Of a stretch of DNA of 64,000 bases, positions 2,976-64,000 are shown in pieces (the stretch's first letter is position 1; every line of letters starts with the position of its first letter). The translations under genes and the position numbers were made by a program. Origin of the DNA: Enoplolaimus lenunculus (Eukaryota); NCBI GenBank assembly GCA_030248215.1, contig JASANG010001414.1, positions 124,001 to 188,000 of the forward strand, in the 5' to 3' direction. Below the pieces are notes generated by a model, which was given only the letters and a program-made list of their open reading frames with translations, did not search any database and was not told the DNA's origin.

Positions 2976-3165
2976 GGCACATGTAAACATCAGGAATGGA
3001 ACGTTTTCCTGTGGAATCGCAACAGAGTAACCTTAAGTTTTAGACTAATTTTTTTGCTTAGCTTAGGCTTTAGGCTTAGGCTTAGGAATATGCTCATTCT
3101 TAGCTTAGAATTCGGCTTAGGCTTCAGCTTATAGTACGGTTCCGCCCCTGTTCTTTACATTGGCC
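2976..3165. mobile_element. MITE family A with internal TTAGGC array
   Basis: Termini ggcacatgtaaa...ctttacattggcc with internal (ttaggc)n. Same family as 20816-21030 and 45067-45261. A degenerate copy lies at ~2214-2416. Confidence 0.7.
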
Positions 3166-27223: not shown

Positions 27224-30189
27224 TATAAATTTAGGAGAAAAATTATGTATATTCGCAGTACTTCAGAGGAAGGGGTCGTCCCGACCGTGCAGTTCTGACA
27301 AGCATAATTTATAAGTGCATTGATAGCAGTGACTGAATTTCTGAAAAATCTTGAAAAGTTTTATCATTCGACCAGTTTATATAGTATTGGACGAAATTTG
27401 TCGAGTTGAATCGAATGGTGTTAAATTTATTGTCATCAGTCCAATATAGGTATTACTCAGCGAGTTATGTTTCAGACTTTGCGCCTCTCAACCTTTTGGT
27501 CGCGGGCCAAAACCTTTATTCGAGAATAACTCAGTACGGAGTAGTACTTATATGCCGAAATAACACCATTATTCAGCTGGAAAAGCAACGTCGAAATACA
27601 TAGGGATATAAATAGTTGAAGTTTTCCACAAGAAATATCCGGTTCAAAAATAGAGTGTTTTGGAACATTCAGAATTCGGAGTGGAATAAAAACTGCGATC
27701 ATGAGAAGCTTAAATACATATAAATTTACAAATTCCAAGTTTTTTGAGCAATAATTTACTGTCAGGCACTTAACGGAAAACAGATAAATTGTCTTGTAGT
27801 CAAGAATATAGTCTGAAATTTTAGACAATTATGTCTTAATGCAGACTACAGGCACCTATGTCTTAAATCCAGACATTAATTGCTTAAAATTTTCAGAAAC
27901 ATGGGTCTGAAATTTTTTAGACTGAGAAGTCCTTAATTTAAGACTGTTTCATGAACAATTAAGAAAAACGTTCTTCAAATATAAGACAAAAATTTCTGAA
28001 ATACAAGGCAAATATGTCTGAAATACAAGACTACGATTTACCAGGGTAAAGACTACAAATTTGAGGGCTAAAGGTGAAACAAATACTTCAGTTTACAATC
28101 TAAGATACGCCCAAGACTTAAACTTAGGTTGGGGTAAGCATGAGCTCAACCCAAAATATCGGTAAAGTTTGATTATTTATATACACCCCTAAGAATATAA
28201 ACGAAGCACAAGCAAATATATGTTTTATAAGGGTAACAGTTTTGTTAATAGACGTTCATGTATTAACCATTAAAATACGAGTATGTCTTGATAATTTAAG
28301 AAAGTAGGAGTCTTGCAATTTCTTGACAATTTATTTTGTGTAAAGACCAACCTCTGAAATCCTTCCCCTGCTCCCCTCCTTGGCTACATGCCCTACTCCA
28401 CTACCTAGCGTAAGTAAATTTTTATTTTTGCTCTCGACTACTATTGCGCGTGCGGCGCTTTTATAGTTAGCAAGGCTTGCACAGCCCCATCAAAATTGTC
28501 TATAGATCCACCCACACCAGCGTAAATGTTGTTTACATGCTCAATGATGCCAATTCCTACATTTAAATATTTCGATGACAACACATCAACGGAAGTTCAA
28601 GTGATATAACACTTATTATTCGCCGTATAGAAATCGTTTGGAACTGGTCATGCAACATCACTCGAAAATCTGTTCTGAATCAAAGTTTAGCCTAAACCGT
28701 AAATCAACCAAGCACAGTGTTGTTCAAAACCAGAACCATTACGTACCTCCAGTATATGCTTGGAGTCCTACTGTGAAGGCCTTTACCACACCACGAGTTA
28801 TCTGGTATGAGCTCGTATACATGGGGATATACTCTCCCGAAAAGTGCGAAAATAGGAAATAAGCACTATTACAGGGTTAAAATGTTTTTCGCTCGTTATG
28901 ACAGCTCCAAAACAATGTTAATATATCTTACCGAAATTCTGGCATCACTTATGATTAGAGGGCGTTTCATACCCGTAGAAGAGAAGGGACCACAAGGGTC
29001 TAAGTCGATCCTGAACAAATTTTGGTCCCCAACCCCGCTTGTTAAATTTGTTTCAAATCCTTGCATACCCCTCTACACAAATTTTTAGCTTTGCCCTACC
29101 TAGTATATTGGGTTGGCTACGAACCAGGAGTCTTGTACGTACACCTAAATACATACTGCTGTGTAAACACCTTCTATGTATATATAACGTACACTTTTAG
29201 TATATCTGTAGTGTTTTCTCTTTCTAAAATTACAGAGTATGAGAGGTTTTTTTATTTTTGAACAAATTCACAAACTATTCACAAGGTTAAATTTTAAAAT
29301 TGAAATATTGAGTTTACATTTTATCGCTTATTATATTTGTGCGAGTGTTGAATATTTTTGTTAATTTTGAGTGCGAAAAATTGAGATTTTTGAAGAGGCT
29401 ATATGAGGTACAACCGGACCAGAGAGACAGAGTAGGGCCAGGAGAGTGCGCTCCGCCGGCAGAATTCCGCCTAGAAAAATTTCAGCCTTGCTTACAAGTG
29501 ATCGAAAATCCTGTATGCCTGCCAGTAGTCCTGAAAATGTTTCAGCCTCCGTAGCCCATTGACCTAGCTACGGGTCTGGGTATTAGGGGCTTTATCAAGA
29601 CAAAAAGGCAGTTTGGTTCAAACAGGCTGGCAATTAATGGGAAGCGGAGGGAGGGCGACGGGAAAACGGATGCCGCCCCCTCTACGGTCAGTTTCGTCAC
29701 CCTGATCGGAAGTTTATTATCTTTAATAGTAAAATTCTATGTTAGAAAACTTTTTTGCCCCTCTGAAAATATTCTTACCCCTCTGCGAAGAATTGATGGC
29801 TGAAGCGTTACATTTGAAGGTTGTATCTGTGAAGGTATCTGACAAGTAGTTGCTCTATATTGGAACGCTTCGTTGTGGCATTCGTTATAGGGTTTCGTGG
29901 CAGTAAAGTTGAAACCCCCGCCGGTAAGGCATGCGGCCCCCTCTACGCGCTCCTAAAATTGTTTTACCCCTACTAACATGTTGATCTGCTTATGGGGGCT
30001 GTTGCTAAGTTGACGGCTATAGGGTCCTTTCCGTTAGGCACAAAGAATCGGTCTTTTGTTCGAGTTTGTTAGGCACAATGTTTGTGTTCAACTGTGACCA
30101 TTCATTATGTTATCGGCCAATGTTAACCTAAAAGCCACTCCCATTTTCCCGGGACAGAAATGTACCAGGAGTACATTCCAAAAATATAA

Positions 30190-31268
30190 TTGGGACAACG
30201 GGACAGTTGGGACAGATGGGACAGATGGAACAGATGAGATAGATAGGACAGATGGAACAGTTGGGACAGTTTGGACAGATGGGTCAGTTTGGACAGATGG
30301 GACAGTTTGGACAGACGGAACAGTTGGGACAGATGGATAGATGGGACAGTTGGGACAGATGGGACAGATGGGACAGATGGAACAGATGGAACAGATGGGA
30401 CAGATGGGACAGTTGGGACAGATGGGACAGTTCGGACAGATGGGACAGTTGGAACAGATGGGACAGCGGGGCAGTTGGGACAGATGGGACAGTTGGGACA
30501 CATGGGACAGATGGGACAGTTGCGACAAATGGGACAGTTGGGACAGTTGGGACAGTTGGGACAGATGGGACAGTTGGGACAGTTGGGACAGTTGGGACCA
30601 AAAGACAGACGGGTCAGTTTGGACAGATGGGACAGTTGGGACAGATGGGACAGTCGGGACAAATGGGACAGATGGGACAGATGGAACACTTAGGACAGAT
30701 GGGACAAACGGGACAGATGGGACAGTTGGGACAAACGGGACAGATGGGACAGTTGGGACAGATGGGACAGCTGGGAGAGTTGAGCAGATGGGACAGTTGG
30801 GACACTTATATATGGGACAGTTGGGACACTTTGGACAAATGGGACAGTTGAGACAGACGGGGCAGTTGGGAAAAACGGGACAGATGGGACAGTTGGACAG
30901 ATGAGACAAATGGTACGGTTGGGACAGATGGGACAGTTGGGACAGATGCGACAGTTGGACAGATGGGACAGTTGGGACAGATGGGACAGTCGGGACAAAT
31001 GGGACAGTTGGGACAGATGGGACAGATGGGACAGCTGGGACAATTGAACAGATGGGTCAGTTGGGACATTTGGGACAGATGGGACAGTTGGGACAGATGG
31101 GACAGTTGGGACAGATGGGACAGTTCGGACAGATGGGACCGCTGGGACAATTGGACAGTTGGGACACTTGGGACAGATGGGACAGATGGGACAGTTGGGA
31201 CAGATGGGACAGATGGCACTGATGGGACAGTAGGGACAGTTGGGACAGATGGGACAGTTGCGACAGTT
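30190..31268 (+). repeat. 9-bp minisatellite (TGGGACAGA/TGGGACAGT)n, ~1.1 kb
   Basis: Seen directly. It explains the many repetitive ORFs in all six frames. Confidence 0.95.
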
Positions 31269-31803
31269 TCAGGTTAAAATTTTATGGCACTGGTAGAACT
31301 GCGAAGAATCTACGGCAACCTGTCGCCCAACAACTCGTCGATCAACATTTCATTTCGTCGGCTCTGACAACTAATCGCTCCGACACGTCATGTACCTGAT
31401 CGTTTGTTACCCTGACATCTCGTCGACATGACAAACTATCTTGTTGACGAGTTGTTGTACCGGTTTGTTGGGCAGAGAGTTGTCGGGGTTGACGAGATGT
31501 CGGGTTAATGGTGACTTGTGAGTTGTCGGTCGGCGAGTTGTCGGGCAACGAATTGTCGAGATGCCAACTTTGATTGCAATGTTGCATTCTGATTTTATTT
31601 GTATACTGCAAAAAAGGGTGAGTCAAATCGATTCTCTACGAAATAGGCTATTCATGGCTACACAAACTGAGTCAAACTCGACTCAATTTGACTAGCGGAG
31701 TCGAATTTGGACTCAGTTTGTCTAGTCCCCTTGAGCCTATTTCGGAGAGATTCAATTTGACACACCATTTTTTACAGTGTAAGCAGATTTTCTGTTTAGC
31801 TCG

Positions 31804-34800
31804 ATGACCATAACATATACAGTATCGCCATTGCATGGTGGATTCTTTTCGTTACTATTTCGTTGGCGTGGCAGTATCTGGAAGCATATTTGGCGAAAAT
31901 TGCTAGTATTCAGTGCGATTTATACTGCGATTAGTTTAACGTTTCGATACGCGTTAACCAAAGACCAACAACGTACCTTTAAATCAGTGTCTGAGTATTT
32001 TAATGTTACCACGAAACAGTTGCCGTTGACGTTTTTGCTTGGATTTTATGTGAGTCAAGTGGTCAAACGATGGTATGAACAGTATAATCAAGTTACCCGA
32101 TTGGACGGATTTATGGTGCTTATTAGTTCAATTATTCGAGTAAGTTGTACGAATCTTGTGTTCGCTCATGTAGGACTAGAGTGACCAATCTAAAGCGAGA
32201 CTTGGGGGCTTGTTTTTAAAAATCATGAATCCGCTTGTGACTTGAGTACTGTAGTGACCCGAACAAGAGGGGACTGATATTTATTTGACCTCGCCAGAGG
32301 GAACCCCTCTTGCTATTCGGTTACGAACTGTTATTTATTTTCAACCCACGTTCCGCCGCCCTTCGTTACTGATATATATCCGGTAGTGCAATTATCCGTT
32401 GAATTAAACGTTTATTTGTCATGCGTCAATAGCTTGATCGACAATACAAGGTTATACTTAGGAATGTACTTTCAAAATTTAAGTACGCTTTAAAGTTTCG
32501 ATCTCAAATTATTTGGTCTTGGAGTCATTTATGCGCAACAATTAGTGTTCATCGACATTTATGGACTCGAATTAGGGTTTATTGACTCTATCCGCTTACG
32601 GACTCTTAATAGGGATACGGACTCCAATTGGTTCGGACTCAAAATGGGGACCCCCTCTTATTACCCCTCCTCCTCTTATTCAGGTCAATATAGTATATAC
32701 GCAACAAATTATATATTATATATATTTTTTATTTATTTATTTATTTATCTATTCATTATAAAGTTTGGTTCCGTACTGGTTGAGTTGCTCAGACGCAACT
32801 TAAATTGACGCTTGTCACTGAATGGAGTACGTGAAGACAGAAAGTAGTCTTTGGATACACTTAAATTACACATTCTCCGTATTAAAACGTTTCCATTGTA
32901 TTCCCCGTTGTGTCAAACGAACGTTGTCCAATCTGACGCGTTAACCTCAACATTTAGCGAAATGTTATAGCGTATAGCAGAAAAAAAATCAAATTTAATA
33001 TATAATTTCGGTGTCCAAGAGACAGTTCAACGATTCTCGGTGTAACTGACTTCAATGTAGTTAGTCCTCCAAGAACAATTAATAAAAGGTCCAATGTATT
33101 AAGCTTCCGGAGCATTCGCCTACGGATAGACAGATTTATACTCCTGCTTAACATTAATTTCTTGCTCAGGTTAGATTTAAGTTTAGATTCATACTTAGTG
33201 TTCCGTAGGTGTTCTTCGTAAATATATACAATTTTTAACGTCATTTTCTAGTAAAACATCTTAATTTCCACCTACCAAATTTAATACCGTAATTTTTAAT
33301 TATGTAAAAATTTACCGGAACCGGAAGGTGAAAAAATGCCGGAACCGGAATTTCGGTTGCACCCCAATATATATGTTAACTATGCAGCAATTCTAAGGGA
33401 CAAAACGAAATTCGAACGCGCATTATTCGTCGAACACTGGCGCGATATGCAAATTTGGCATGCATTATGGTGTGGCGCGGCATTGTGTTACGGGTCAAAA
33501 AACGCTTTCCAAAAGATTCTCATCTGATGGTCGCCGGGCTGATGACCGAAGAAGAAAAAACGGAATTTGACGAAATCTGCATGCCTACATCGTCGCATTT
33601 GGTGCCTCTGATGTGGATGATAAATATAGTAGGTCAGTTTGATGCGTACAAGGTTTGTTTCGCTGACCTTTAAATATACGTTAACGAAATACACCTTGTC
33701 TTATGAAGTCAATTGCGTTAATGTAATATGCTCTCGTTTCAAAACCGACCACGGAATCCCGAAACCAGTCGATTAAATGCAAAATGTTTTTCAGGTTTGC
33801 AATCTGCGTTTCATATTCGCCGCCAGAATGCTGAGTTTAGGACCCACATTTTCAAATGTATATAGCAACTATCATCAGTTAGTAATAGGTTTTCAAACTC
33901 ACTAGCTATTGCCGTTGTTGAACTCAAAATTGGTGCAGGAGTAGAGTAAATCATATGCGAAAATGTGATGAATTTTGAGTCTTAGTATTCACTGGTTCGA
34001 AAGTTACAGGGCCTGTCATCAACTGGTGATAGGTGCTTATTACACCCTTGAAAATGCGAGCAATGGTATGCAAGTGGGGCATGGGCGTAGCCGCAAGTTT
34101 TGTTTGGGGGGGGCTATTGAAATACTTTAAATATATAGTGTGTTAATCAATTTTCCTCAATAAGCATGTGCAGCAGAGTGCAAAACGGAAAAAGCATCAA
34201 CAACTAGTGTGTGGGAGCGAAACAGCACAGGGCATCCTAGTTTCAATTTATTCAAAAATGAAATTTTTCTAAACCATTGTGGGGCCATGGCCACCTTGCC
34301 CCCCTTGGCTACGCCTTGGAAGTGGGGCTTTTGACCAACACGTATGATAGGTGACCACCAGGGTGCATCCAGAATTATAAAATACCGGAGCGGGAACCGG
34401 AAAGTTAAAAAATACCGAAATCGGAACCGAAAAATAAAAATACTTGTTACCGAAAAATTCATTTAAAAGCCATTTTATTACTTTTAATGCTGTAAATACG
34501 CCACAATGCCAAAACCTAAAACAATAAAGCAGTATGTGGAAACATAAGATAAATTGTGGAGTATGGTACAAATTGAAAATTTTGGCAATACACCCTCAGA
34601 AAATTTTCGAAAAATAAGTTAGAATTATGCCAATTTTTTAAATTTTTGAATGAGAAGTTTTCAATACCGAAAATACCGGGAAATTCCGGTGAAAAAGTAC
34701 CGCATTTACTATCGGAACCGGATAGTGAAAAGTACCGAATTTTCCTACCGTAACCGGAATTCCAGTTGGACCCTCCGATTTTAACTTATCAATGCTCAAT

Positions 34801-37782
34801 GCCACAGGTGTTGGTAAAACACAAATGCTCTTGCCAATGTATAAAACAGAACCATAGCTGTAGTGTAATCGTATTAGCCTAAGCCTAAGCCTAAGCAAAA
34901 AATTAGTCCAATGTTTAAGCTTACTCTATTGCAGTACCACAGAAAAACGTCACACCCCTGACCTTTACATGTGCTAACGCTTTGAGTCATGCATTTCAGC
35001 AAAATGCTACGAAGAAGGTATGATCACTGATTATCAAATGGACAGAATTGTCACTGAAATCAACGGAATTCGCTCACAGCTTGGAACACTGTCCCGGTTT
35101 GATTGGATCCCGATTCCATTAATTTATACACAAGTCGCGACGTTGGCTACTTATGGATATTTTGCAGTTGCTACTATTGGACGCCAGTTTGTGGTAAGGA
35201 ATTGGCGTACGGGTCTTTTTGTGATAGTTTGGAGGATGGACCTGTTGCTTGAAAAGGGAACGAAACCATTAGAATCAGTTGTGATAGCAACATCGTTTAT
35301 AACAGCGTCAGTATAGCAACTAAAACATCGGGAAATGATGAAAAAAATTTATTTCTGGTAATAGATGTTCTTAAAAAAAAAATTTATTTCTCGTAATAGA
35401 TGTTCCGATTTGAAAAAATTAATAATTGTATACTCGAAATCCAATGGGAAAAATTGGTTTAGATAACACGGCAATTTGAAAAGTTATTGATTTATGTTTA
35501 AATCCAATACTAGCTGGCTTTTTATAAGTTAATACTTTTTATTACATTTTAGCATATTTTTTGCAATTTTATAGGATGACGAAGACGGCATTGATCTGTA
35601 CGTTCCAGTTCTGACACTGCTTGAATTTGTGTTCTATATGGGATGGCTGCAGGTCGCCGAAGATTTATTTAGTCCGTTTGGCGAAGACGATGAAGATTAT
35701 GAAATGAATTATATCATTGACAAAAATGTTCAGGTATTGAATTGTATGGCGGAGATACGAATCTGGACCCCCCTTTGATTTTGATAAAAAGTGGTCCATC
35801 CTATAGATCTCGACGAGCTGAATTCAACAATACCATTTTTATGGCTGCATGACCAACGGTTCAGAAGATATGGCCCTTGATATTAGTGCAATCACGCACA
35901 GATTGGAACAGCAAGAATCTATCATTCGCATTTTCGTAAAATATAAGCTTAACCAGGTTTACTCTTTAGACAAACTTGATTGTTTGCCCGTGTTTTATAT
36001 GGTAAAAAGTTAAAATTCAAATGGCCGTAAATATAGAAGCGGTGATCCTAATGCGCCAAATATGGCACCGTTGGACCCAGCGCGCCGAAATCTAAAAATC
36101 GAACTATTTTTTATTAAATTCCTAGGGGGTTCATATTCCGTACCTCCGCCGAATTAAATTACGTTGTAAAACCAAACGCTAAACTTTTGGTTGAATTTTT
36201 CGTTGAGGCCGCCATGCTGCAAACTTAACGTTTTAATAAGATTGTGAAATTTTGGTGGGTTTATGGTACCCAGTAAGGCCGGTAACCAGCTGTGATTTTG
36301 TTAGCGTGCCTCAAAAAATTCCAGTAAAATACGCGTGTAGATTGCACATAAAATTTATACACGAAGCTATAACTTTTCCAAAGGAATGTGACCATTTTTC
36401 AACGAGGGTAGAGCGCGTCTGCCCCACCGTGTCTACTCGTCCGTATATCGTCGTTCTAGAACGAGTGAAACAAAACTCAACCGCTACGGGTGCCTTTATT
36501 GGGCAAATGGCGTTTTGAAAATAGACGAAAATTCCTTTTTAATTTTAGAAAAGTTTTCTCATCGTCGATACTCTACACGGACGAATTGGTTCACTAACCA
36601 AAGATTTACACTGGTCGACGAAAATTGTTACGCTGCCGCACACCGTTGCGTCATCGCGAGTCACCGAGCATACGTTTCCAGGCCACTTGAAAAAGTATCG
36701 TTTGACTGAAAAACAAATGATTGTCGTCGAACCACAGTTTGCTAAAGGTAGGTTTTGTTTCACTGCTTCACTATAATAAAATTACTGTAGTGACCCGAGG
36801 AAGAGGGGGGACTGATATTATTTGCCCTCTCCAGAGGGTACCCCCCTTGTTATTCGGTTACGGACTGTTATTCATTTTTAACCCGCGCTCCGCCGCCCTT
36901 CGTTTCTGATATATATCCGGTACTGCAATTATCCGTTGAATTAAACGTTTATTTGTTCGAACTCAAATTATTTGGTCCCGGAGTTATTTATGCGCTGCTA
37001 ATTGACATTTATGGACTCTAATTAGGGTTTAGGGACTCTATCCGCTTACGGACTCTTATTAGGGATACGGACTCCTATTGATTCGGACTCAAAATGGGGA
37101 CCACCTCTTATTACCCCCCTCTTATTCGGGTCAATACAGTAATTGAATGAATGAGGCTCATGTACACTTTCTTCCGCATTTAAAGTTAAATTTAGGCAAA
37201 AACATTAGGGTTAGATCTAGGTAAGCTTTCGCTAAACATTACAAGAGCCTTTAAATGGTAGAATGATTATTTATATTTATACATATTTATTTCTGGCCCG
37301 CGAAAATTCTTTCAATTATTCTTTCATTGCTGAAACACTTTGTTTCTTAATTTGTAGATGTATATTACGCGCAAGGCTGGCAGTAAATCCAAAAATCCAA
37401 AAATTTAACTTTAGGAATACAACGGCGCCGTTCCGCGATGCGTGGCGAAGTCCGGTGGCGCGCTGCAGCGGGCGGCCAAAATTTTTTACGGTGTGCGCGC
37501 CAGCGTCTGGCGGCGCGCGTCGGCCGTTTTTCATTTACTACCACATTTTCTTACTTAATTGTTTACTAATTTTTTTAAAAATTATTTTCAGCCGAAGGAC
37601 CCGAAACATCAGTATTCGAACGCTTGCGTCTGTCGCGATTTGGGAAATGCTTCCGAGGTGAAGAAGAAGCAATCGACGAATCATCACCAGTTGCTTCCAA
37701 CGATAAACCAAACAATCAACAACCAGCAACAACGATTAAAACTGGCGAAACTGAACGGCTGACATTTGTTGACGATGCGTAA
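31804..37782 (+). CDS. best: Bestrophin-family chloride channel
   Basis: Exons 31804-32139, 33398-33632, 35000-35193, 35575-35733 and 36549-36747, with a probable last exon at 37592-37782 (3' end uncertain). Motifs: [72 protein letters not shown] and [12 protein letters not shown]. Confidence 0.93.
32249..32693. mobile_element. TA-flanked MITE family C (Tc1/mariner-like) in bestrophin intron 1
   Basis: TIR ctgtagtgacccgaacaagagggg / cctcttattcaggtcaatatag with TA on both sides. Confidence 0.85.
33863..34038. mobile_element. Small MITE; other copies at ~50995-51190 and partial at ~54325-54381
   Basis: TIR agcaactatcatcagtt / aactggtgataggtgct with a shared body across copies. Confidence 0.65.
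35748..36150. mobile_element. MITE in bestrophin intron 4
   Basis: TIR ggcggagatacgaatctggaccccc / gggggttcatattccgtacctccgcc. Imperfect 9-bp flanks gaattgtat and gaattaaat. Confidence 0.65.
36785..37139. mobile_element. MITE family C in bestrophin intron 5
   Basis: TA|ctgtagtgacccgaggaagaggggg...ccccctcttattcgggtcaatacag|TA. Confidence 0.88.
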
Positions 37783-39059
37783 AAAGCGATCGCGATTTCT
37801 GACAATGCTGGACTAAAACTGATCTCTTGCACTGTATTTCGAATGCTGAGGGCTGAGCCTATAACTTTAATGCTGTTGCTGCGGACGCTCAAATTTTCGA
37901 CGTACGCATGTGAAAGATGTACGAACCAATGAGAATTACATAAATCCCGGCTTGTAGACTTTTCATATTATGATTCTACCTACAAGAGTCCTTCAGAAAA
38001 AGTTTGCTGCAGTTGCGGGAAGACTCGAACTTACAACGTGTGCGATAAGTTGTATTGACCAGTGATTTAGGCCCAAAGGCGGAACGTTTTTCTGGCGTGA
38101 ATGCAATACAGTATAAGCTTAAGATTTAGGCTATTTTTTGCTTCGGTTTGCGGTTAGGCTTAGAAACATGCTTGTACTACTGTAACAACCCTGTTCTATA
38201 CATTGATCATTATTTGTTCGTCGGACATTGGGACGTTTCTTGTTGATTCCGACTATATTTAGCGACAATGCTTCACCAAAACTTGCTGTGGCTATGGTGA
38301 GCATCGAGTTTTACGACGTATATGACTGTTGCAAGGACTACCGATTAATCTGCCAGATATTTTACGCTATGTATCGAACTGTAGAGCCCTTCACGAAAAT
38401 CTTCGCACGGTTGCAATTTAACCAACAACGTATGTTTTCTCCAAGTTTATCGAGTATTAGGGATATCTTAGCTGGATTCAAAGATAATATCAAAACATTG
38501 GTACGGTGTTTTGAGAGTTTAAACTGCTGTAGCAATATTTTTGTATTTTTATACTCAATTTTGTACATCTTTAATTTGAAATAAACTGTGTTTTATGTTG
38601 CTGAATTTAAATGCAACCGTGTTTGCTTGTAAAAAACTCTTAAGCGTACACTATAAATAGTAAAGCGATTTATGTACAATATGTCTGAAATACTTATACT
38701 TGTATACGGCAATTGCACTTAAAACGAAAAAATCAAATTAGCAGTGGTTATACCAAATTGTTGATTATCCTACCCTGTAGCAGCCATAGATTGTCCCGCA
38801 GTCTGATGGTTGGGACGGCTCATGTTACGATGAAGGCCGTCCCATTGTCCTGGGTTATCAATATACTTAGAATGCAAACATGTGCACTCCTGAGCAGGAT
38901 AAAGTGTTCCAATAATGAACTGCATACAACCAATACTTTTCCTAAATCATATTCACTTTTTGAGAAAACATCGGAAAGAGCAAAAGCATTTAAACTGTTG
39001 AATTTCAAAATATAACGTTCAGATTAAAATGAACTATTTTAAGCGATAATAAAAGGTTA

Positions 39060-39497
39060 CTGTATTGACCCGAATAAGAGGGGGGCTGATATTTATTTGG
39101 CCTCTCCAGAGGGTATCCCTCCTTGTTATTCGGTTACGGACTGTTATTTATTTTTAACCCACGCTCCGCGGCCCTTCGTTACTGATATATATCCGGTACG
39201 GCAACTATCCGTTGAATTAAACGTATTCGTCTCGTTTCAGTAGTTTGAGCGATAATAAAAGGTTATACTTAGGAATGTACTTTCAAAATTTAAGTACGCT
39301 TAAGTTTCGAACTCAAATTATTTGGTCCTGGAGTCATTTATGTGCTACAATTAGGGTTAATTGACATTCATAGACTCTAATTAGGGTTTAGGGACTCTAT
39401 CCGCTTACGGACTCTTATGAGGGATACGGACTCTTATTGATTCGGACCCAAAATGGGGACCCCCGCTTATTACCCCCTCTTATTCGGGTCAATACAG
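39060..39497. mobile_element. MITE family C, intact copy nested in an older family C copy
   Basis: Perfect 25-bp TIR ctgtattgacccgaataagaggggg with TA duplication. The flanks rejoin as the internal family C sequence aaaaggt-ta-tac. Confidence 0.9.
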
Positions 39498-39808
39498 TAT
39501 ACAAGAACGTACTTTCAAAACTTACTCATCATGCTTTAAAGTTTCGAATTCAACTTTATTTGGGGGCCTAGAGTAGTTTATGCACTACAATTAGGAGAAG
39601 AAAATTTACTGGTAACTAGCACAAACATTAATAAAGCAAGGTATAAGAATTACCAAATAGGAAAAGCACAATAACGTTTTTGTTGCGCACAGTCACAAAA
39701 CCAATTCAAAATTTGTGTTTCATACTTAAAAAAATCACAGCAAACATCGAAATCCTAACGGGTTTATGTCTTGTATAACTATATGACTGAAGATAACCAA
39801 AAATGTCT

Positions 39809-42525
39809 CTAACGGCATTGGAGAACGTATTCTACAAAGGCATCTAAAATATTTTTCTTCATAAAATTTATGGCCGGTATAAAACGGCCTGATCGTGTTT
39901 CAATTCGCGATTGCCAGATTGCATACTGCATATTTTGAACTATGAAATTGAACTGGGTTTGATCATTTTTACGCGGGAGACGCTTACCCAGAATTAAATC
40001 ACTTAAACTAATGTGATTGATTTTTGCAATTGTTTTCAGCAAAGGAGACATGTCGTGATATAAGTCTTAAGCTCGTGAGCAATATATAAACACGTGAATG
40101 TTATCTTCAAGTATCTCTATTCCTGCCTTTCGGCACTAGGCGCAACACTCTGGTTCCTCAGTGAAGCGGGCTAAACCTTGAGTCTTAATGTAAAATGACA
40201 GTTTCTAACAGAACCTTCTACAAAACTAGCTTTCGCAAAAATCCAAGACTTCGTAATTCTTCTGAAACCCCTAAACTCAGGAACCAACTGTTAGTTTTGG
40301 GTCGTAGTTCCTTTGAAAAGGTTTCTGTAACCCATAAAATATAAAATTCTTTTGGCATTATTTTTTCTAGATCAAACACTTTCCCAAAAATTAACGCAAC
40401 CGCGCCATGTCTTTGAAAACCTGATTTTATTACCGCAGTTCTAATTTCCTTATAAAATTGTGGAGTTTTGCAGCGTGCAAGCTGGCGAATGGTTAAGGAT
40501 TGAACATTTTTGTAATGATGGTCGAAACTTCTTCTCCAGCTTAGGGCCTTTTTATGCGTAATTACATGTATGTAAAAAATTAAACGATTAACAAGGCAAC
40601 GTATACTTACGTTTGGAAAACCAATCCCACCTCTCATTGGGGTAAAAATAATATTTCTCTTTTGATTTTGCGGGCCTGAGAAGGAAACCAAACAAGGGCC
40701 GTGACATTTCGATAAGCCTGTGCTATAAGGCTAGCAGGTGGAGTAATTAGCCTTTTAATATAATTGAGCACAAATAATACAAAGACAGAAAATGAATTCT
40801 ACCGAAAAACGAAATACCATAAGGGGGAAACATAATTTTTATATTTAATTGGCACATTTCGTTCTGTCGTACCCAACAATAAAATTTTTGTTTTTGCAGT
40901 ATTTAACCTACTACCTGAGGCGAGTTTATACTGATCAAACAACTCTATAATTGTATCCATTTCATTCCATGAAGTAACAAACAAACTTGTATCACCGGCG
41001 TACCTGGTTAGTTTTGTATTAGTACCATGTAATAGAAAACCTCTTAGGAGATCTGTATGTCTGATAAAATTAGCTATTACTTCAGCGGTTATGAAATAGA
41101 TGTACGGGAACAACGGACATCCTTGTCTAATCCTCCTGCTCAACATTATTGGTTGAGACAGAAAACCATTGACATTAACCACAGACCTTGCATAACCAAT
41201 TTTATAAATACAACTTAAAAACCCCAAAAAGTTGGGCCCAAAATTCATTTTTTCTAAAACTTTAAAAATAAAGGGCCACTCAACCATATCAAAGGCTGCT
41301 TGATGATCTAATGAAACAATCATTCCTTGTTCATTATACTCATTCGAACAATCAATAACACATTTAACATGCATTATACTGTCAAAAATAGTTCGGCCAG
41401 GTATCGCACAGGTCTGGTCTGGGTGAACTAACGCAGTCATGACTTTTTCAATTCTACGTGAAAGTATTTTTGCAGAAATTTTATAATCCAAATTTAGCAT
41501 AGTTAACGGTCTCCATTTTTTACTCAAGTCGCGTGCTCCAGATCCCTTATATAACAAAGAAATAACACCATCATAACAACTAACATTCATTGTATTATAT
41601 GTTAAGAAAAGATTATACATGTCGCATAAAAATGGACTAATAAGCGAACAATACTTCCAATAAAATTCAGTTGGAATTCCATCGCGACCAGGAGTTTTAT
41701 TTCCCTTGACCGAGCATATAGCTAACTCAACTTCTGACACCATTATGAAACTATCAAGAATTAACTTTTGTTCTCACACAACGTGGGCAAACCTGGTGCG
41801 CTTAAAAACGAGTCCAGCAATCGGTGGTCTATTCTTTCCGATTGAAATATCGATGCGTACTGTTCTCTGATTTCAAGAAGTATTTCATCTGGGTCCTCTG
41901 AAATGTAACCATTCGATTTGCGAATAGCGAAAATATGTTTTTGTTCCCAATTTTTTCGTTGTTGTGATTTGATCGTTGCTATAGAAGAACGGTCGTTAAC
42001 AAAATCATTATAATAAGTATTATGCTTATAGGAGGCTATATAGAAACTATCCATTAATTCTAATTCATACAACAGTTGTTTTACATATTTTTTAATAATA
42101 ATAATAATATCATGAGGGTTGCACATTGTACAATCCGGGCATTCCGTATCCGGAGTTCAAGAGATCTTTTTTGAAGACGTTTAGATGTAGATTCACTTTT
42201 GCCTAACTGGCAGAAATATAATGTAATCTGTTTTTTAAAAATTTCCCATACATTAAAAGGTTCGTCCTATTGCTTCAAGAAATTTTCAACAAGAGGTATT
42301 ACAAAATTGTTAACGCAATTTCGGCAAACGAGTGATAAATCAGAAAACGGGAATTACAGATTCTGTCAAACATTTCAGCTTCATTAGGACAACGAAAATG
42401 TGTTTCCTGAAGAGCAACAACATCTAGGTCCTTTATTTTTTCCAGAACGCAGGAAATTTTGCGAAAGTTTGTCAGTCCACTACAATTGAAAGTCCCGAAA
42501 GTTAGAAATTTACAACTTGCAGCCA
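39809..42525 (-). pseudogene. ORF2 remnants: APE endonuclease N-terminus, reverse transcriptase and C-terminal zinc finger
   Basis: TFNCSGL...DVVALQETH (42299-42525; rest of the endonuclease not recognisable). KTPGRDGIPTEFY, WRPLTMLNLDYKI, SLDHQAAFDMVEW, IRQGCPL and YAGD (normally YADD) in 40799-41743. GGIGFP in 40218-40691. C-C-A-stop-C...EDNIHVFIYC at ~40080-40150. Confidence 0.92.
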
Positions 42526-42588
42526 TCAGAAGGACACTGAAAGTGTAAAGTTCGAGCAGGAGATTCAATCGAAATTATGTATAGGTTA

Positions 42589-44225
42589 CTATTTTCTCTT
42601 CATAAGAATATTTGTTGGACTTAGGTCAACTGCAGATGCGGATCGTTTAACCGCACGAAAATCTTTAATACTGCTTTTAAAAATATCATCAAATTCTTTT
42701 TTGAACGTCGGATCACACGCCAGCAAATGTTTGACGTAAGATAGCATATCGCCGTTAAGGTTTAAGCAGTCTTCAGGCCATTGCGTTCGGGTTGAAGCTT
42801 TTGGGTCATCATAATTCAATCCACAACCCCATATAGATCTGCCTGTGTTCGATTCTACGAAAGCACCTGATAAAGAAAAAAGTTTTTTTCGTTGATCTTC
42901 ATGCTGCATGAATTTTTCATAATTTGCTACAATGATCAATTTCCCTATCACTTGTACATAAAAACTGGGGTTTCCATTCAACGTCACTTTTTGCGTAACC
43001 GTTTTATTTTGACCGGGTCTGTTGTTGCACGAATTTCATCCGCTACATCTGAACAATTAGCCAGTTTCGCCTTCCACACACCAATAAATTGTTCCACACA
43101 ACTATAATGTTCACCCCAAACTTTGAGGCTAGGAGTCACCTGGTAAAAATTCGACAAAAAATTATTGGTTGGGTGTTTAGAGAAAAACAAATTTAGCTTA
43201 ATATTATTGGAAGCCGTAAAGAGAAAAATTCCTTCTCGTTTCATCGCAAGAAACTTATTCCAATTCAAAAAAGAGACAAATTCATTCGCAACTCGCGGTA
43301 GAATGTTTTCCGCTACAGAACGTTCTGGTTCAAGTGATTTACTCACCACCTCATCAACCATTCCTTTTACATACTGCGATATCTGTAAATACTGCTTATC
43401 GTTTTCATAATTTTGGCGAGTTCCAGGCACTAGCTCTGATTTTTTTGCGATTAATGCAGGAAAATTGTCACAATTTTCTTTCGAATGACCATATTTAGCG
43501 CAAATGCGACAATGAACAGGAACAGACATTTCCGGAAACCACACGCGGATCCGCAGTGACCCATTTCTAAAATTACAATGTTGCCAAAACAAAATAGGAG
43601 GCGGAACAAATTCACGCAAGCATTGTATTACATAACTACGACCTGGAGTATCAATTGTTGTGCCTTTCCACTTTATAAACCGTCCCGGAAAAATGGGACT
43701 TAACCCCTGTGTTTTTAAAAATTCGCACACTTGAGCATCCGGTACCGCAAAAGGTATTCCGTACAGGTGTATCGTGATACGTTTATGCAAATCTGAGTAA
43801 TCCATAGTCCTTGGGTGGTGTAGCGTAACGTTTTTTCCGCATACCGTTATTACTTCATTTGAAGCAAGTTTAGCAATATCCGGTGAATGAAAAATTAGTT
43901 GAATAGAGCTGCGCAACCGAGATGCTTTATCAAGCACAAATATATCATTAATCTCATTTAAAATTTGCGACATGTTGAAATCTTTTAAACCTAACTGATC
44001 CAAATTGTTAAGATACAATGTTCTCTGACGATAATATTCTAAACCATCCTTAAGTATTTCATAATCATCGCGTGCTACAGCTGTTTCCGAGTCAAAATAA
44101 TCATCGTCGGGGGATGTCGGAGGGCCGTTGACGGTAGCGAGATGTTGCCGTGACGGGGTAGTTCGACCGCCACCACCTGTGTCATCGACCAAGTCGTGTG
44201 AAGTTGAAGAAGCCAATGCATACAT
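42589..44225 (-). pseudogene. ORF1: RRM-like region, CX2CX4HX4C knuckle and C-terminal NADAR (YbiA-like) domain; one frameshift at ~42985
   Basis: ITIHLYGIPFAVPDAQVCEFL; CRICAKYGHSKENC; FLSNFY...YSCVEQF...KAKL...DPVKIKRLRKK, then in the next frame EKFMQHEDQRKKL...FVESNTGRSIWGCG...W...NLNGDMLSYVK. Adding one A to the A-run at the junction fuses the two ORFs. Confidence 0.82.
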
Positions 44226-44246
44226 AATTAGATTCAGATTAAAAAC

Positions 44247-44384
44247 TTGACATTTATGGACTCTAATTAGGATTTAGGGACTGTGTCCGCTTACGGGCTC
44301 TTATTAGGGATACGGACTTCTATTGATTAAGACTCAAAATGGTGACCTCCTCTTATTACCCCCCTCTTATTCGGAACACTACAG
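44247..44384. mobile_element. Right half of the MITE C copy interrupted by the retrotransposon (left part at ~39040-39059 and 39500-39595)
   Basis: ttgacatttatggactctaattagg...cccctcttattcggaacactacag|TA continues close to where 39500-39595 stops (ctacaattagg), with about 5 bp missing. Confidence 0.85.
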
Positions 44385-45066
44385 TAAGTGATCTTTTAGA
44401 TTGCTAATAACAAAATATAATATGTCCTCAATCGTAGTTTGGTTTGCGTCGTTTAATCCGGCCGAAAAGAAAGTATCGTTTGAAGAGTCAGTATTAACGA
44501 CACCACCATGAGTATCTACAATACCTTGATGTTGTCACGCTGCATTTGCGTATTTATCGTAGGTTATAACCATAAAATTTAAATAATATGAATGAAATAA
44601 GCAGGATGGGGTAATCGTATCCAAACCCCACACTTTTGGACTGTTCTGGTGTATGAAAAGAAAGTCGCTTAGCGTGGTGGATTAGAATTCAAAAGTTACG
44701 AGCTTATGAGTTCTGTGGCATAAGAAACTCAAATGTGCATTTTACAGATTGCCATATTCGTAAGCTAGCCTTTTGCTTATTAGCATCCCAGTTAGGCTTG
44801 GCGTCTTATTAAATCAAGAGCGATCAAAATTTAATGACGCCCAATTTATAATCTCGCGACGCGATTTGGTATATGTACAAGTGGATTTTTCTTACAAAGG
44901 TAATAAATTTTAGTACCTGACGGTGTGTACCCTATGCACATTTTTCACTGAGCTAATTTTGATAATTTAAAAACATGAAATTATTCCGATAAATAATAAG
45001 CTAAAATGAAGTTTTTTAATTTGGCATGTTTTAAAAAATGAAAATTTTAATCATTATGGATTTATG

Positions 45067-45261
45067 GGCCAATGTAAAGAACAGGGGCGGAACAGTATTA
45101 TAAGCATATTCCTAAGCCTAAGCCTACGCCTAAGCTTAAGCCTAAGCGTAAGAAAGAGTTTATTCCTAAGCCTAAGCCAAGCAAAAAATTAGTCTAAAGC
45201 TTAAGGTTACTCTATTCTAGTTCCACAGAAAAACGTTCCGCCCTTGTTCTTTACATGTGCC
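45067..45261. mobile_element. MITE family A copy with GCCTAA array
   Basis: TIR ggccaatgtaaagaacaggggcggaac / gttccgccccttgttctttacatgtgcc. Further degenerate copies at ~24185-24379, ~34832-34974 and ~38070-38205. Confidence 0.85.
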
Positions 45262-61700: not shown

Positions 61701-63675
61701 TATAATACTAAAAATTTACATTTCAGTATTCTTAACTAGATTTTATTGAGGGAATTCACATGAATAAAATACGTAAATGTTAGTTATTTTACTAATTTTC
61801 ATTTTCGCGTGATCTATACAAACTTATATAATTCAAACAAAGGGCGTTCACCTGTGGGTCACTGAGGGGTGCATCCCAGCAGGCAGCTCACAGAGACATT
61901 GAAACAAATCTGTCGTGTTTTGATTCCATTTTCATAATTTGTGCGAAACTGCATTTGTACATAACACATATGGTAAAGACTCAGCGGCTCCTTGGGTGCA
62001 ATCAAAACAGCCCTATTACACATCAGTTTGGTAAAGCCTATGTTAGTTGGCCCCTAAATCTGAAAGTTTGTCCCATGATTTAGAACAAAAATGGGTCCTG
62101 CTTCTCGCTCACTGCGCTATTAATGTCTTTTCAGCTGCTACTAAAAGCGGACTATGTTCATTTGAGTTTCTTAATTTCTGTATGATTAGTTTCGAAAAAT
62201 GATAATTGAGCGAAGCGAAACGGGAAGCGTTTTATGTTTTGCACTCTGGGCTGGGGTCGAAAGGTGGATGTCCGTCTGTCCGTCCGAAAAGAATCTCAGG
62301 AACGGCTGAACCGATTTTGACAAACTTTTTTGTTTGAAAGCCAATTATCCTGGGGTGTTAACCTCGCATTGGGATTTTTAAATTTTAAGTCGTTTAATAT
62401 CTACAGGCTAATTTGTATAATTTGTTAAGCCTAAATTAGGACTTTCTACATTATTTCACTAATCATTACTGTTACAAGCAATTTAATTTCAGGATTAAAG
62501 GGTTTTGGGTGCGAGGAATCTAAACAGACTGTTTAAAAACCTTCAAAACCGATAATTGAGTAGTTAGCTAATAGATAATTTGCATATTAGTATAGTGTAT
62601 AAACCCAAATTAGATGCTGATGCTGATTAATTGGCACATTTCTACCCACTACGACTGGTTATTTATGTGACTAGTATACGCCACCTATATTAGAAACGCG
62701 CACTGCGGAATCGCAACTACATTTGAATTGGAATCAGTGTTTCATTAACACTATGGATATTTTTATTATTTGTGCTTGCGTGACCATATTATTGTTATTT
62801 TGTTTAGATGATGGTGAAGTTATAGTATTGAGCGACGATTCAGATGTATCTACTTTGAAGGATGAAGAACTTGAATTCATTAGATCTAATTATGAAAAAG
62901 TAATTATAATTAATTTTTTACGTAGGTTTCTCGTAGAAAATGGTGCAGCCAAAACACCGATTCCGATTCGAATTCCGATCCAAAACAAATTGTGATTCCG
63001 ATTGCGATAAAAATTCTGTATTATTTATCTATTAATGCTTTCTATAATCAATAATCGATTGTACTTTACCGTAGGAAAACCAAAAAGCATCGCCAATTTG
63101 TTCATGCGACGTGTTCGACAATTATTCGCAGCCAACATACCATAAATTAATATTATATTTCAAGTTTAAAGATGTAATTTGGTTTGGGCAAAAAGTGTTC
63201 AATTGGCTTTAAGTTTCTTTTTATACTCTGATTTACCTGCATTCATCCATTACGCATTTGCTTATATAATTCAAACCAGTTATTTCGGTACATATGTTGC
63301 TGTAATAAATACTAGTCCGCCGGCTTTGCGCACTGCGCATAAGTGATCCATTGCACAATAATCTACATGCAAAGTATCCTTTTGCAGAACAATAGCGTTT
63401 TTGTTCAAAGAAAATATTGAAATATTGTAGAAAAGTAATGTTGGAAAGTACCCAAATTACGAATCATGTGGGGCATTCTAGCTTTAATAATGTACATTTT
63501 CTTCTGGCATTTAACCATTATTGTTAAGATGGTCTGCTCTGAATTGACTATGGAACAAGTACGAGAGCGTCGAAATATGATTCGGCGCTTACAAGCAGAA
63601 CTTCGTGTCGAAGAAGCAAAGCTGGTTTTGTTGAAAAAGATGAGAATCAGTCAACAGCAACATCTAAACAACAAG
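58721..63675 (+). CDS. GATAD2: p66/GATAD2 (NuRD subunit; simjang/dcp-66 family), 5' part; continues beyond the window
   Basis: Exons 58721-58753, 59899-60060, 61360-61522, 62808-62899 and 63529-63675 join in frame. Motifs: RRSSRVCALRAIQKLK, EVIVLSD and the CR1 coiled coil ERRNMIRRLQAELRVEEAKLVLLKKMRISQ. Confidence 0.9.
59185..59744 (+). mobile_element. Two tandem degenerate family 3 LTRs
   Basis: atggag.caa.taaaaac.tcatgctgatg...tgaggttc.tataaggc...gtgagg.gg....gctca....gcgcgc.ggactgagaatctgtcg occurs twice. Confidence 0.75.
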
Positions 63676-64000
63676 GTTTGTCGGTCGGCACATGACGATG
63701 TCTGAATTTTATCAATAACGGTGGCATAAACAAATTTTGAATTTTACTGCCGATAAATAAGACTTTTAATTCTGCAAGTTATTTGTTTAAAAATATTTAA
63801 TAAATTTGGAAAATGCGAAAATATATCTCAAGCCTCAGCCGTTATTTTAGAGCCGAATGCATTCAGGGCTGTCTAAAGTCAACCACAGGATACCAAATTT
63901 ACCGAGGCGCACAGTTTATTGTCCAAGGGGAGGGGATTGATCGTGATGAAAATTGATTGCTCACTTTCTTTGTTAACGAATTTTGAAGGTTTAATGAAAT

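What the first reader, a model, noticed from the sequence alone, without database searches (positions are those of the whole stretch)
42589..44225. L1/Tx1 retrotransposon ORF1 fused to a NADAR (YbiA-like) domain
Seen: after the RRM-like region and CCHC knuckle, ORF1 continues (~43196-42720) with FLSNFY, YSCVEQF..KA, DPVKIKRLRKKV, KFMQH, FVES...IWGCG and W...NLNG..L..VK. It is split only by a one-base slip in an A-run, and it ends about 60 nt before the APE-RT ORF2. Established: this motif order is that of NADAR/YbiA/RibX proteins. These are N-glycosidases, and some remove ADP-ribose from guanine (DarT1-NADAR systems). LINE ORF1 accessory domains are usually coiled-coil, RRM, knuckle, PHD or esterase. 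Inference: the element carries its own ADP-ribose or nucleotide-processing enzyme in its RNP, possibly to counter host ADP-ribosylation. I do not know of a described NADAR-bearing Tx1 family but cannot search. Caveat: the usual Asp before IWG is Arg here, so this copy may be inactive.
Basis: partly seen in the sequence, partly recalled or inferred. Interest (0 to 1): 0.92.

Follow-up and report, generated by a model that had tools for sequence, protein, structure and literature searches.

The report
Dead LINE copy with NADAR ORF1
This is a broken copy of a multi-copy jumping gene whose predicted RNA-coating protein ends in a NADAR domain, likely an enzyme that strips ADP-ribose from RNA or DNA bases; the fusion is real and widespread, was already noted in print for oyster elements, and its job is untested.

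Summary
The minus-strand ORF1 (44225-42589) reads RRM-RRM-CCHC knuckle-linker-NADAR, and an APE-RT ORF2 starts 62 nt later. The NADAR halves match Pfam in order. An intact relative folds onto the NADAR structures 8BAU and YbiA (Z 15.6 and 14.3).

The frameshift belongs to this copy: contigs of all three runs read through it. This copy is dead, with a ~600-nt APE deletion, YAGD for YADD and several frameshifts. The fusion is not a one-off: 28 of 42 ORF1 relatives carry NADAR, and so do 6 of 80 LINE loci in a separate RT lineage.

It is not new: PMC12477816 (2025) reports YbiA-type NADAR in ORF1 of oyster Tx1 LINEs, and this scan found the fusion before on other DNA. The Arg for Asp is not decay. 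None of 12 domains in this subclade has the Asp, yet all keep both catalytic Glu. The host is probably a nematode, unproven. Best reading: a tethered N-glycosidase that removes ADP-ribose from the element's own bases (about 0.45). Verdict: new member of a known, functionally untested kind.

The parts
39596..44246 (-). Whole decayed L1/Tx1-type LINE copy, about 4.65 kb. No target-site duplication or poly(A) tail seen.
   Evidence: Junctions with the two halves of a MITE; contigs of empty MITE copies join 39596 to 44248
42589..44225 (-). ORF1, about 545 codons, in two pieces (44225-42984 and 43035-42589 stop to stop), split by a one-base loss in the A-run at 42992-42988
   Evidence: full-length colinear match to intact 545- and 575-aa relatives; the N-terminal D..GGG start is shared with relatives
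43812..44027 (-). RRM-like domain 1 of ORF1 (approximate limits)
   Evidence: Alignment to P0002; the model of P0002 residues 73-146 matches RRMs at Z about 10, rmsd 1.8-2.0
43527..43787 (-). RRM-like domain 2 of ORF1 (approximate limits), of the ZCCHC3/Tx1-ORF1 type
   Evidence: Tandem-RRM hits; HHalign 96% to the ZCCHC3-type ORF1 part of Pimephales P0126
43470..43511 (-). Single CCHC zinc knuckle (C-x2-C-x4-H-x4-C)
   Evidence: Sequence; zf-CCHC hits in relatives
42721..43187 (-). NADAR (YbiA-type) domain. It keeps the equivalents of 8BAU E43, K50, K75, E125 and W133; the D130 site is Arg, R93 is Ile, R79 is Lys, W89 is Tyr.
   Evidence: Pfam PF08719; residue mapping through P0002 and 8BAU; fold of relative
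42308..42526 (-). ORF2 start: only the first ~73 residues of the AP-endonuclease. About 600 nt are missing at 42317/42316.
   Evidence: Exo_endo_phos E 0.002; tblastn jump from residue 73 to 275; an X2 contig holds ~597 extra nt here
40799..41773 (-). Reverse transcriptase frame of ORF2; YAGD in this copy, Asp in the family contigs
   Evidence: RVT_1 E 1.2e-25; 131 bits to human L1 ORF2 against 44 to R2; variant at 40995
39738..40730 (-). Frameshifted C-terminal remnant of ORF2
   Evidence: tblastn pieces in three frames
44247..44386 (.). One half of the MITE that received the insertion (MITE positions 304-442)
39505..39595 (.). Other part of the same MITE (positions 216-298); a second, complete MITE copy lies at 39058-39499

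Best explanation
This is a dead copy of a multi-copy L1/Tx1-type LINE whose ORF1 is RRM-RRM-CCHC-linker-NADAR, and in working elements the NADAR domain likely acts as a tethered N-glycosidase that removes ADP-ribose from bases of the element's own RNA or new cDNA. Shown: the domain order; that the frameshift is private to this copy; that the fusion is shared with dozens of relatives and two RT lineages; that the fold is NADAR; that both catalytic Glu and the basic residue are kept. From established knowledge: LINE ORF1p binds and chaperones its own RNA, and tested NADARs hydrolyse guanine-ADP-ribose (PMC11543638, PMC11125620) and some cytidine-ADP-ribose on DNA and RNA (PMC12945103). Inferred: ORF1p would bring many NADAR copies onto the transcript, where they would clear base adducts that block reverse transcription. 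Not identified: the enzyme that would write those adducts.
For: Profile and fold: (8BAU Z 15.6, rmsd 2.7, 164 aligned; YbiA 2B3W Z 14.3). Family-wide: contigs of 3 of 3 runs (2 samples, 1 study) carry one more base at 42987 and cover the domain without loose ends; contigs bridge knuckle and NADAR start (X1 record 7 and X2 record 14). Widespread: 28 of 42 phmmer hits have NADAR at E<=0.01, 25 above the curated cut-off; 11 of them have a single matched stretch that lies in the RRM/knuckle part only. 6 of 80 metagenome LINE loci have a NADAR ORF upstream of the RT on the same strand. Constraint: across 20 near-full-length ORF1s the NADAR is 35% identical against 24 and 29% for the RRMs and 12% for the linker; one pair in the other lineage gives dN/dS 0.07 in NADAR against 0.32 in the tail. 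Residues: E43 in 38 of 38 domains, E125 in 37 of 38, K or R at K50 in 36 of 38, W133 in 37 of 38 (4 of the 38 are bacterial). These include the positions shown to matter for catalysis in PMC11543638. Parallel: NADARs in animal RNA-virus polyproteins are proposed to reverse host ADP-ribosylation (PMC9503650).
Against: No activity was measured and no writer enzyme was found. In this subclade the pyrophosphate cage is altered: D130 in 0 of 12, and R93 in 0 of 34 ORF1 domains against 4 of 4 bacterial ones. The Asp-x-x-Trp pair appears to be among the residues that the SNA-3 paper calls critical for YbiA (my inference from its D343/W346 and the original paper could not be read). NADARs have other roles, in riboflavin damage control and nematode trans-splicing. 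5 of 80 loci have a related RRM-type ORF1 without a NADAR hit, so such elements can exist without it. The dN/dS rests on one pair, in another RT lineage, with dS near saturation.
Confidence: 0.45

Rival explanations
1. In this subclade the NADAR fold is a binding or scaffolding module, or an enzyme with a changed substrate: it holds nucleotide or RNA ends or a host partner in the ribonucleoprotein rather than cutting ADP-ribose.
For: D130 is lost in 12 of 12, R93 in all, R79 in most, and G78 in 9 of 12 domains of the subclade. Pfam scores are lower in the subclade (25-61 bits for most) than in the canonical ORF1 NADARs (about 90-120). Nematode SNA-3 uses NADAR domains in RNA processing, with no known substrate. 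Earlier notes describe degenerate lineages (unchecked).
Against: E43 and E125 are invariant in all 12, with K or R at K50 in 11 of 12 and W133 in 12 of 12. Lys-to-Arg at that site keeps in vitro activity, and D130 makes only a water-mediated phosphate contact in 8BAU.
Confidence: 0.28
2. The domain is an active N-glycosidase but serves housekeeping rather than counter-defence: it clears small ADP-ribose derivatives or RNA-end products made during RNA processing or integration, or adducts from environmental bacterial toxins.
For: PMC12477816 suggests processing of RNA intermediates. PMC9503650 links NADARs to RNA repair and small ADP-ribose derivatives. PMC12945103 proposes protection of marine invertebrates against actinomycete genotoxins.
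Against: It gives no clear reason why a domain should be fixed to ORF1p in several retroelement lineages (LINE ORF1 here, Gypsy Pol in Ectocarpus) when hosts could supply the activity. No substrate is shown.
Confidence: 0.24
3. A one-off capture or chance passenger in this copy, or an assembly artefact.
For: The window's copy differs from the family contigs as neutral decay predicts: 8 replacement and 3 silent changes, expected silent share 0.21.
Against: That decay affects the whole copy, RT included (13 replacement, 5 silent among the 18 listed differences checked). Other copies and 28 of 42 relatives carry the same fusion at the same place.
Confidence: 0.02

Closest known systems
ORF1 proteins of Crassostrea gigas Tx1 LINE families with YbiA-family NADAR (Repbase; one paragraph and Fig. 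S2 in PMC12477816)
   Same: NADAR of the YbiA type inside ORF1 of an L1/Tx1-type LINE; function untested.
   Different: Different host, probably a nematode (unproven). This subclade lacks the D130 Asp. Direct sequence comparison was not possible: Fig. S2 gave only its legend as text.
Ectocarpus Gypsy lineage IV Pol with N-terminal NADAR (PMC12477816)
   Same: A retrotransposon carrying a YbiA-type NADAR.
   Different: LTR element, domain on Pol rather than ORF1.
Phytophthora NADAR (8BAU) and E. coli YbiA (2B3W)
   Same: Same fold (Z 15.6 and 14.3 for the relative P0002); E43, K50, K75, E125 and W133 equivalents kept in the window.
   Different: Stand-alone enzymes. The window's family has K, Y, I and R at the R79, W89, R93 and D130 sites.
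DarT1-NADAR toxin-antitoxin system (PMC11543638)
   Same: NADAR superfamily.
   Different: DarT1-linked NADARs are of the BC4488 subfamily with a catalytic Asp and sit beside a toxin gene. This one has the YbiA-type Glu and no transferase was found in the window.
C. elegans SNA-3 (PMC9303266)
   Same: NADAR domains in an RNA-protein particle of a nematode.
   Different: Host trans-splicing protein with three NADARs and no RRM-knuckle or RT. It was not compared by sequence here.
Xenopus Tx1L / ZCCHC3-type ORF1
   Same: RRM-RRM-CCHC ORF1 (HHalign 96% to a Pimephales ZCCHC3-type ORF1). Tx1L inserts in the DNA transposon Tx1D (PMC1950540), and this copy sits in a MITE.
   Different: No NADAR is listed for that Pimephales protein. 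Target preference here rests on one insertion.

Membership tests
NADAR superfamily (PF08719) | Profile match over the whole domain | tested here: met
   Halves cover profile 1-75 and 83-162 (28.7 and 33.8 bits, each under the 35.1 cut-off alone); intact relative P0002 61 bits; X read-through 139 bits on an independent profile
NADAR superfamily (PF08719) | YbiA fold | tested here: met
   On the relative P0002 (about 29-30% identical), not the window's own protein: 8BAU Z 15.6, rmsd 2.7, 164 aligned; 2B3W Z 14.3, rmsd 2.5, 148 aligned
NADAR superfamily (PF08719) | Catalytic positions E43, K50, E125 (8BAU numbering) | tested here: met
   E, K, E in the window; no contig variant at these codons
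NADAR superfamily (PF08719) | Full pyrophosphate-binding set K50, R79, W89, R93, D130, W133 | tested here: not met
   Window has K, K, Y, I, R, W; D130 in 0 of 12 subclade domains
NADAR superfamily (PF08719) | N-glycosidase / base de-ADP-ribosylation activity | not testable with these tools
   Needs an assay
YbiA subfamily | Glutamate in the last strand | tested here: met
   FVES glutamate aligns to E125; definition from PMC11125620
DarT1-NADAR toxin-antitoxin | BC4488-type catalytic Asp and an adjacent ADP-ribosyltransferase gene | tested here: not met
   Glu type. No transferase family among the element's 8 frames or 115 of 125 other frames of 75 aa or more in the window (short exons not covered)
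L1 clade non-LTR retrotransposon | ORF2 with N-terminal AP-endonuclease and L1-type RT | tested here: met
   131 bits to human L1 ORF2 against 44 to R2; close relatives carry PF03372 and PF00078
L1 clade non-LTR retrotransposon | Target-site duplication and 3' tail | tested here: not met
   Neither is seen at the junctions of this copy; a few target bases are missing instead. This may reflect how this copy inserted or decayed.
Tx1 subgroup | RT groups with reference Tx1 elements | not testable with these tools
   No Repbase references. The tree of 196 rows places the window in a 14-row clade of unnamed relatives.
Tx1 subgroup | ORF1 with RRM and CCHC knuckle of the ZCCHC3/Tx1 type | tested here: met
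   RRM/zf-CCHC ORF1s are described as consistent with Tx1 in PMC5203782
Tx1 subgroup | Target-site specificity (many, not all, families; recalled) | tested here: inconclusive
   One insertion, in a MITE family that covers 2.9% of the rest of the window
Oyster Tx1 ORF1-NADAR families (PMC12477816) | Direct homology or common descent with the C. gigas families | not testable with these tools
An Atlas cluster of 463-aa NADAR proteins, commonest phylum Mollusca, scored 0.82 on the non-NADAR part: a lead only.

The most novel reading that the evidence does not exclude
ORF1-NADAR is a retrotransposon counter-defence against an undescribed invertebrate system that ADP-ribosylates bases of retroelement RNA or cDNA. 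This lineage, probably extending L1/Tx1-type LINEs with NADAR into nematodes, has rebuilt the phosphate pocket around invariant catalytic glutamates to meet a different adduct.
Probability: 0.22. Interest if true: 0.85.

Novelty: new member of a known kind. Interest (0 to 1): 0.38.

Why it matters
If the domain is an active eraser, its wide retention on LINE ORF1 proteins points to base ADP-ribosylation as a chemical defence against transposons in invertebrates, which has not been shown in the papers I found. The intact relatives found here (P0002, P0043, P0008, P0014 and loci L056-L072) give ready assay material. They include a natural contrast between domains with and without the D130 Asp. 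The window's own copy adds little: it is a decayed member of a fusion already mentioned in print.

Tried and rejected
No whole genome is held for this window, so copies could not be counted or their flanks read. A word-based protein search with the 413-aa ORF1 piece found nothing among 4977 candidates; the full HMMER search then gave 42 hits. No RNA holder was listed.

Contig depth over the element was several times that of the unique flank 44345-44677 and rose towards the 3' end. The tool states that depth is no copy number, so I rely instead on the flank being identical while element contigs differ by 2-3%.

The ORF1 alignment had no stretch conserved enough for a locus search. ORF1-ORF2 linkage in the close clade therefore rests on the window, its family contigs, and three pairs of proteins that share source and contig length (P0002/P0054, P0007/P0055, P0020/P0060), which is suggestive only.

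Host: a bestrophin exon gave one hit (annelid, 43%), uninformative. The NADAR tree (38 rows, 4 bacterial, 18 of 35 inner branches open) cannot settle one or several captures; nematode host NADARs and the oyster families were not in it. The second fold job repeated P0002 with a smaller alignment and gave the same layout at lower confidence; the window's own ORF1 was not folded. Frelin et al. 2015 on YbiA residues is not held. The Atlas gave no hit at 0.9 or above.

Rejected: Arg-for-Asp as damage to this copy; DarT-NADAR membership; one-off insertion. Searches for earlier notes on this genome or on the RT sequence were empty.

Full report
What is in the sequence. The minus strand holds a 413-codon frame from the ATG at 44225 to a stop at 42984 and a second frame ending at 42589. 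Pfam NADAR matches residues 347-412 of the first piece on profile positions 1-75 and the second piece on positions 83-162 (E 4e-5 and 4.8e-8; the first half alone 1.8e-6). The halves adjoin across a run of five A at 42992-42988. ORF2 begins 62 nt after the ORF1 stop. It keeps only ~73 residues of the AP-endonuclease, jumps to residue ~275 of intact relatives, and continues in several frames through the RT to about 39738. The RT scores 131 bits against human L1 ORF2 and 44 against R2. The element spans about 39596-44246 and interrupts a copy of an abundant 442-nt MITE, without target duplication or poly(A).

This copy is dead, the family reads through. Three public DNA runs (two samples, one study, possibly the window's own source) hold the stretch. 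Their contigs match the unique flank at 44345-44677 with no difference, but match the element at 97-98%, so they stand for other copies. In all three runs the contigs carry one more base at 42987, so ORF1 and NADAR are in one frame there. One contig holds ~597 extra bases where the window lacks the endonuclease, and all three runs have Asp where the window reads YAGD. Over 42580-43082 the window differs from these contigs at 11 sites (10 seen in all three runs): 8 replacement and 3 silent, close to the neutral silent share of 0.21. At three of them (H for R411, E for K, L for M) the contig residue is the one found in relatives. Against a still-active family: lower-depth contigs show their own lesions in the NADAR N-terminal half (a stop in X1, indels at 43177 and 43182), and contigs cannot show that any single copy is whole.

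The fusion is old and common. HMMER over 1.84 billion representatives gave 42 hits. 28 of them carry NADAR at E<=0.01, 25 above the curated cut-off. Most of the 14 without are short fragments; two longer ones (406 and 1480 aa) lack it, and P0004's longer cluster-mate P0043 has it. Eleven NADAR-bearing hits matched the query in a single stretch confined to the RRM/knuckle part, so they were not found through NADAR. The ten looked up in each of two calls come from ENA, JGI, Logan and NCBI; four are named 'ribA/ribD-fused uncharacterized protein', the rest are unnamed. Of 80 LINE loci fetched by RT motifs (many near-duplicates, many too short to hold ORF1), 6 have a NADAR frame upstream of the RT on the same strand, and 5 others have a related RRM frame without a NADAR hit. 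In a FastTree of 196 RT rows (5 of 200 fetched rows dropped as partial; no outgroup) the window lies in a 14-row clade (support 99) of 49-56% relatives. The six NADAR loci lie together in a distant 11-row clade. The module is thus in at least two RT lineages; the tree cannot tell gain from loss. Across 20 near-full-length ORF1s, NADAR is 35% identical, the knuckle 38%, the RRMs 24 and 29%, the linker 12%. For one pair in the distant lineage, dN/dS is 0.07 in NADAR, 0.07 in RRM-knuckle and 0.32 in the tail.

Structure and active site. The intact relative P0002 (about 29-30% identical) was modelled at mean pLDDT 79. Residues 357-528 match Phytophthora NADAR 8BAU (Z 15.6, rmsd 2.7, 164 aligned) and E. 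coli YbiA 2B3W (Z 14.3); residues 70-255 match single and tandem RRMs (Z 9-10). A profile of the ORF1s matches the ZCCHC3-type ORF1 part of a Pimephales element at 96% over RRM2 and knuckle. Mapped through P0002 to 8BAU, the window keeps E43, K50, K75, E125 and W133. PMC11543638 (section 12 read) shows by mutagenesis of E. coli C7 NADAR that the positions equivalent to E43, K50 and E125 matter, that Arg can replace the Lys in vitro, and that D130 makes a water-mediated phosphate contact. The window's Arg at the D130 site is a lineage trait. No contig differs there, and none of the 12 domains in its NADAR clade (SH-aLRT 97) has Asp, while 14 of 16 canonical ORF1 domains and 4 of 4 bacterial ones do. 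R93 is absent from all 34 ORF1 domains. The pocket is therefore remodelled around kept catalytic residues. The SNA-3 paper (passages) says four residues are critical for YbiA and mutates an Asp-x-x-Trp pair as homologues, so the loss may matter; the original YbiA paper was not available.

How it most likely works. LINE ORF1p binds and chaperones its own RNA (established knowledge, recalled). NADARs of all tested subtypes hydrolyse guanine-ADP-ribose in vitro (PMC11125620, parts 1-2 of 6 read), and some also cytidine-ADP-ribose on DNA and RNA, including a sponge enzyme (PMC12945103, passages). I infer that the fused domain would be carried onto the transcript and would clear base adducts that stall reverse transcription (0.45). 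A binding or changed-substrate module (0.28) and a housekeeping glycosidase (0.24) remain open. No writer enzyme is identified.

What is known. PMC12477816 (passages and the Fig. S2 legend) reports YbiA-family NADAR in Pol of Ectocarpus Gypsy elements and in ORF1 of several Tx1 LINE families of Crassostrea gigas, role unclear. Its alignment figure and two FASTA supplements could not be read and may bear on how close those families are to this one. It was the only paper holding Tx1, ORF1 and NADAR as whole words. Searches for NADAR with retrotransposon, with ADP-ribos/YbiA/nematode/transpos, with LINE/retroelement/ORF1p, and for RNA ADP-ribosylation with retrotransposons listed no functional study in the rows shown (listings only). 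Subscription papers are not covered. This scan has noted the fusion before: 15 findings in at least 4 other genomes.

Host. TTAGGC occurs 61 times in the window, with 5 tandem arrays, against 23 and 0 for TTAGGG. TTAGGC is the telomere repeat of most nematodes (PMC9071541, passages). That is a hint, not an identification; the bestrophin search did not help. One search for L1-Tx1 with 'nematode genome' found no paper and another listed none on the point, too little to claim a first.

Verdict. This is a decayed new member of a fusion already mentioned in print, from a subclade with an altered phosphate pocket. The open question is the function, and it is directly testable with the intact relatives found here.

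Noticed in passing
window 39035-39595 and 44247-44386: The LINE sits inside a copy of a very abundant 442-nt MITE, and a second complete MITE copy has inserted into the same host MITE. Xenopus Tx1L targets a DNA transposon, so target preference is possible, but there is one case and the MITE covers 2.9% of the rest of the window.
   Followed up: partly
window 31804-37782 (+): Multi-exon bestrophin gene, divergent (43% to its only listed hit); the LINE lies about 1.8 kb beyond its apparent last exon.
   Followed up: partly
window 12418-14746 (-): C2H2 zinc-finger gene with a 446-codon exon.
   Followed up: no
window 63439-63702 (+): Exon with the P66/GATAD2 coiled-coil (NuRD subunit), Pfam E 2.9e-14.
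   Followed up: no
window 45067-45261 and 38074-38205: A second small inverted-repeat element carrying internal TTAGGC-type repeats; other TTAGGC arrays at 3070, 10776, 10817, 16205 and 34877.
   Followed up: partly
window about 30091-31274: GC-rich, strongly skewed stretch with long open frames in all six phases, probably a tandem repeat.
   Followed up: no
L056:298-1905: ORF1-NADAR with His in place of the catalytic Glu, the residue described for phage-type NADARs.
   Followed up: no
L080:57-7667: A single 2,500-codon frame holding an L1-type RT, far longer than a usual ORF2.
   Followed up: no
P0022 (1480 aa): ORF1 relative with many CCHC knuckles and no NADAR hit.
   Followed up: no
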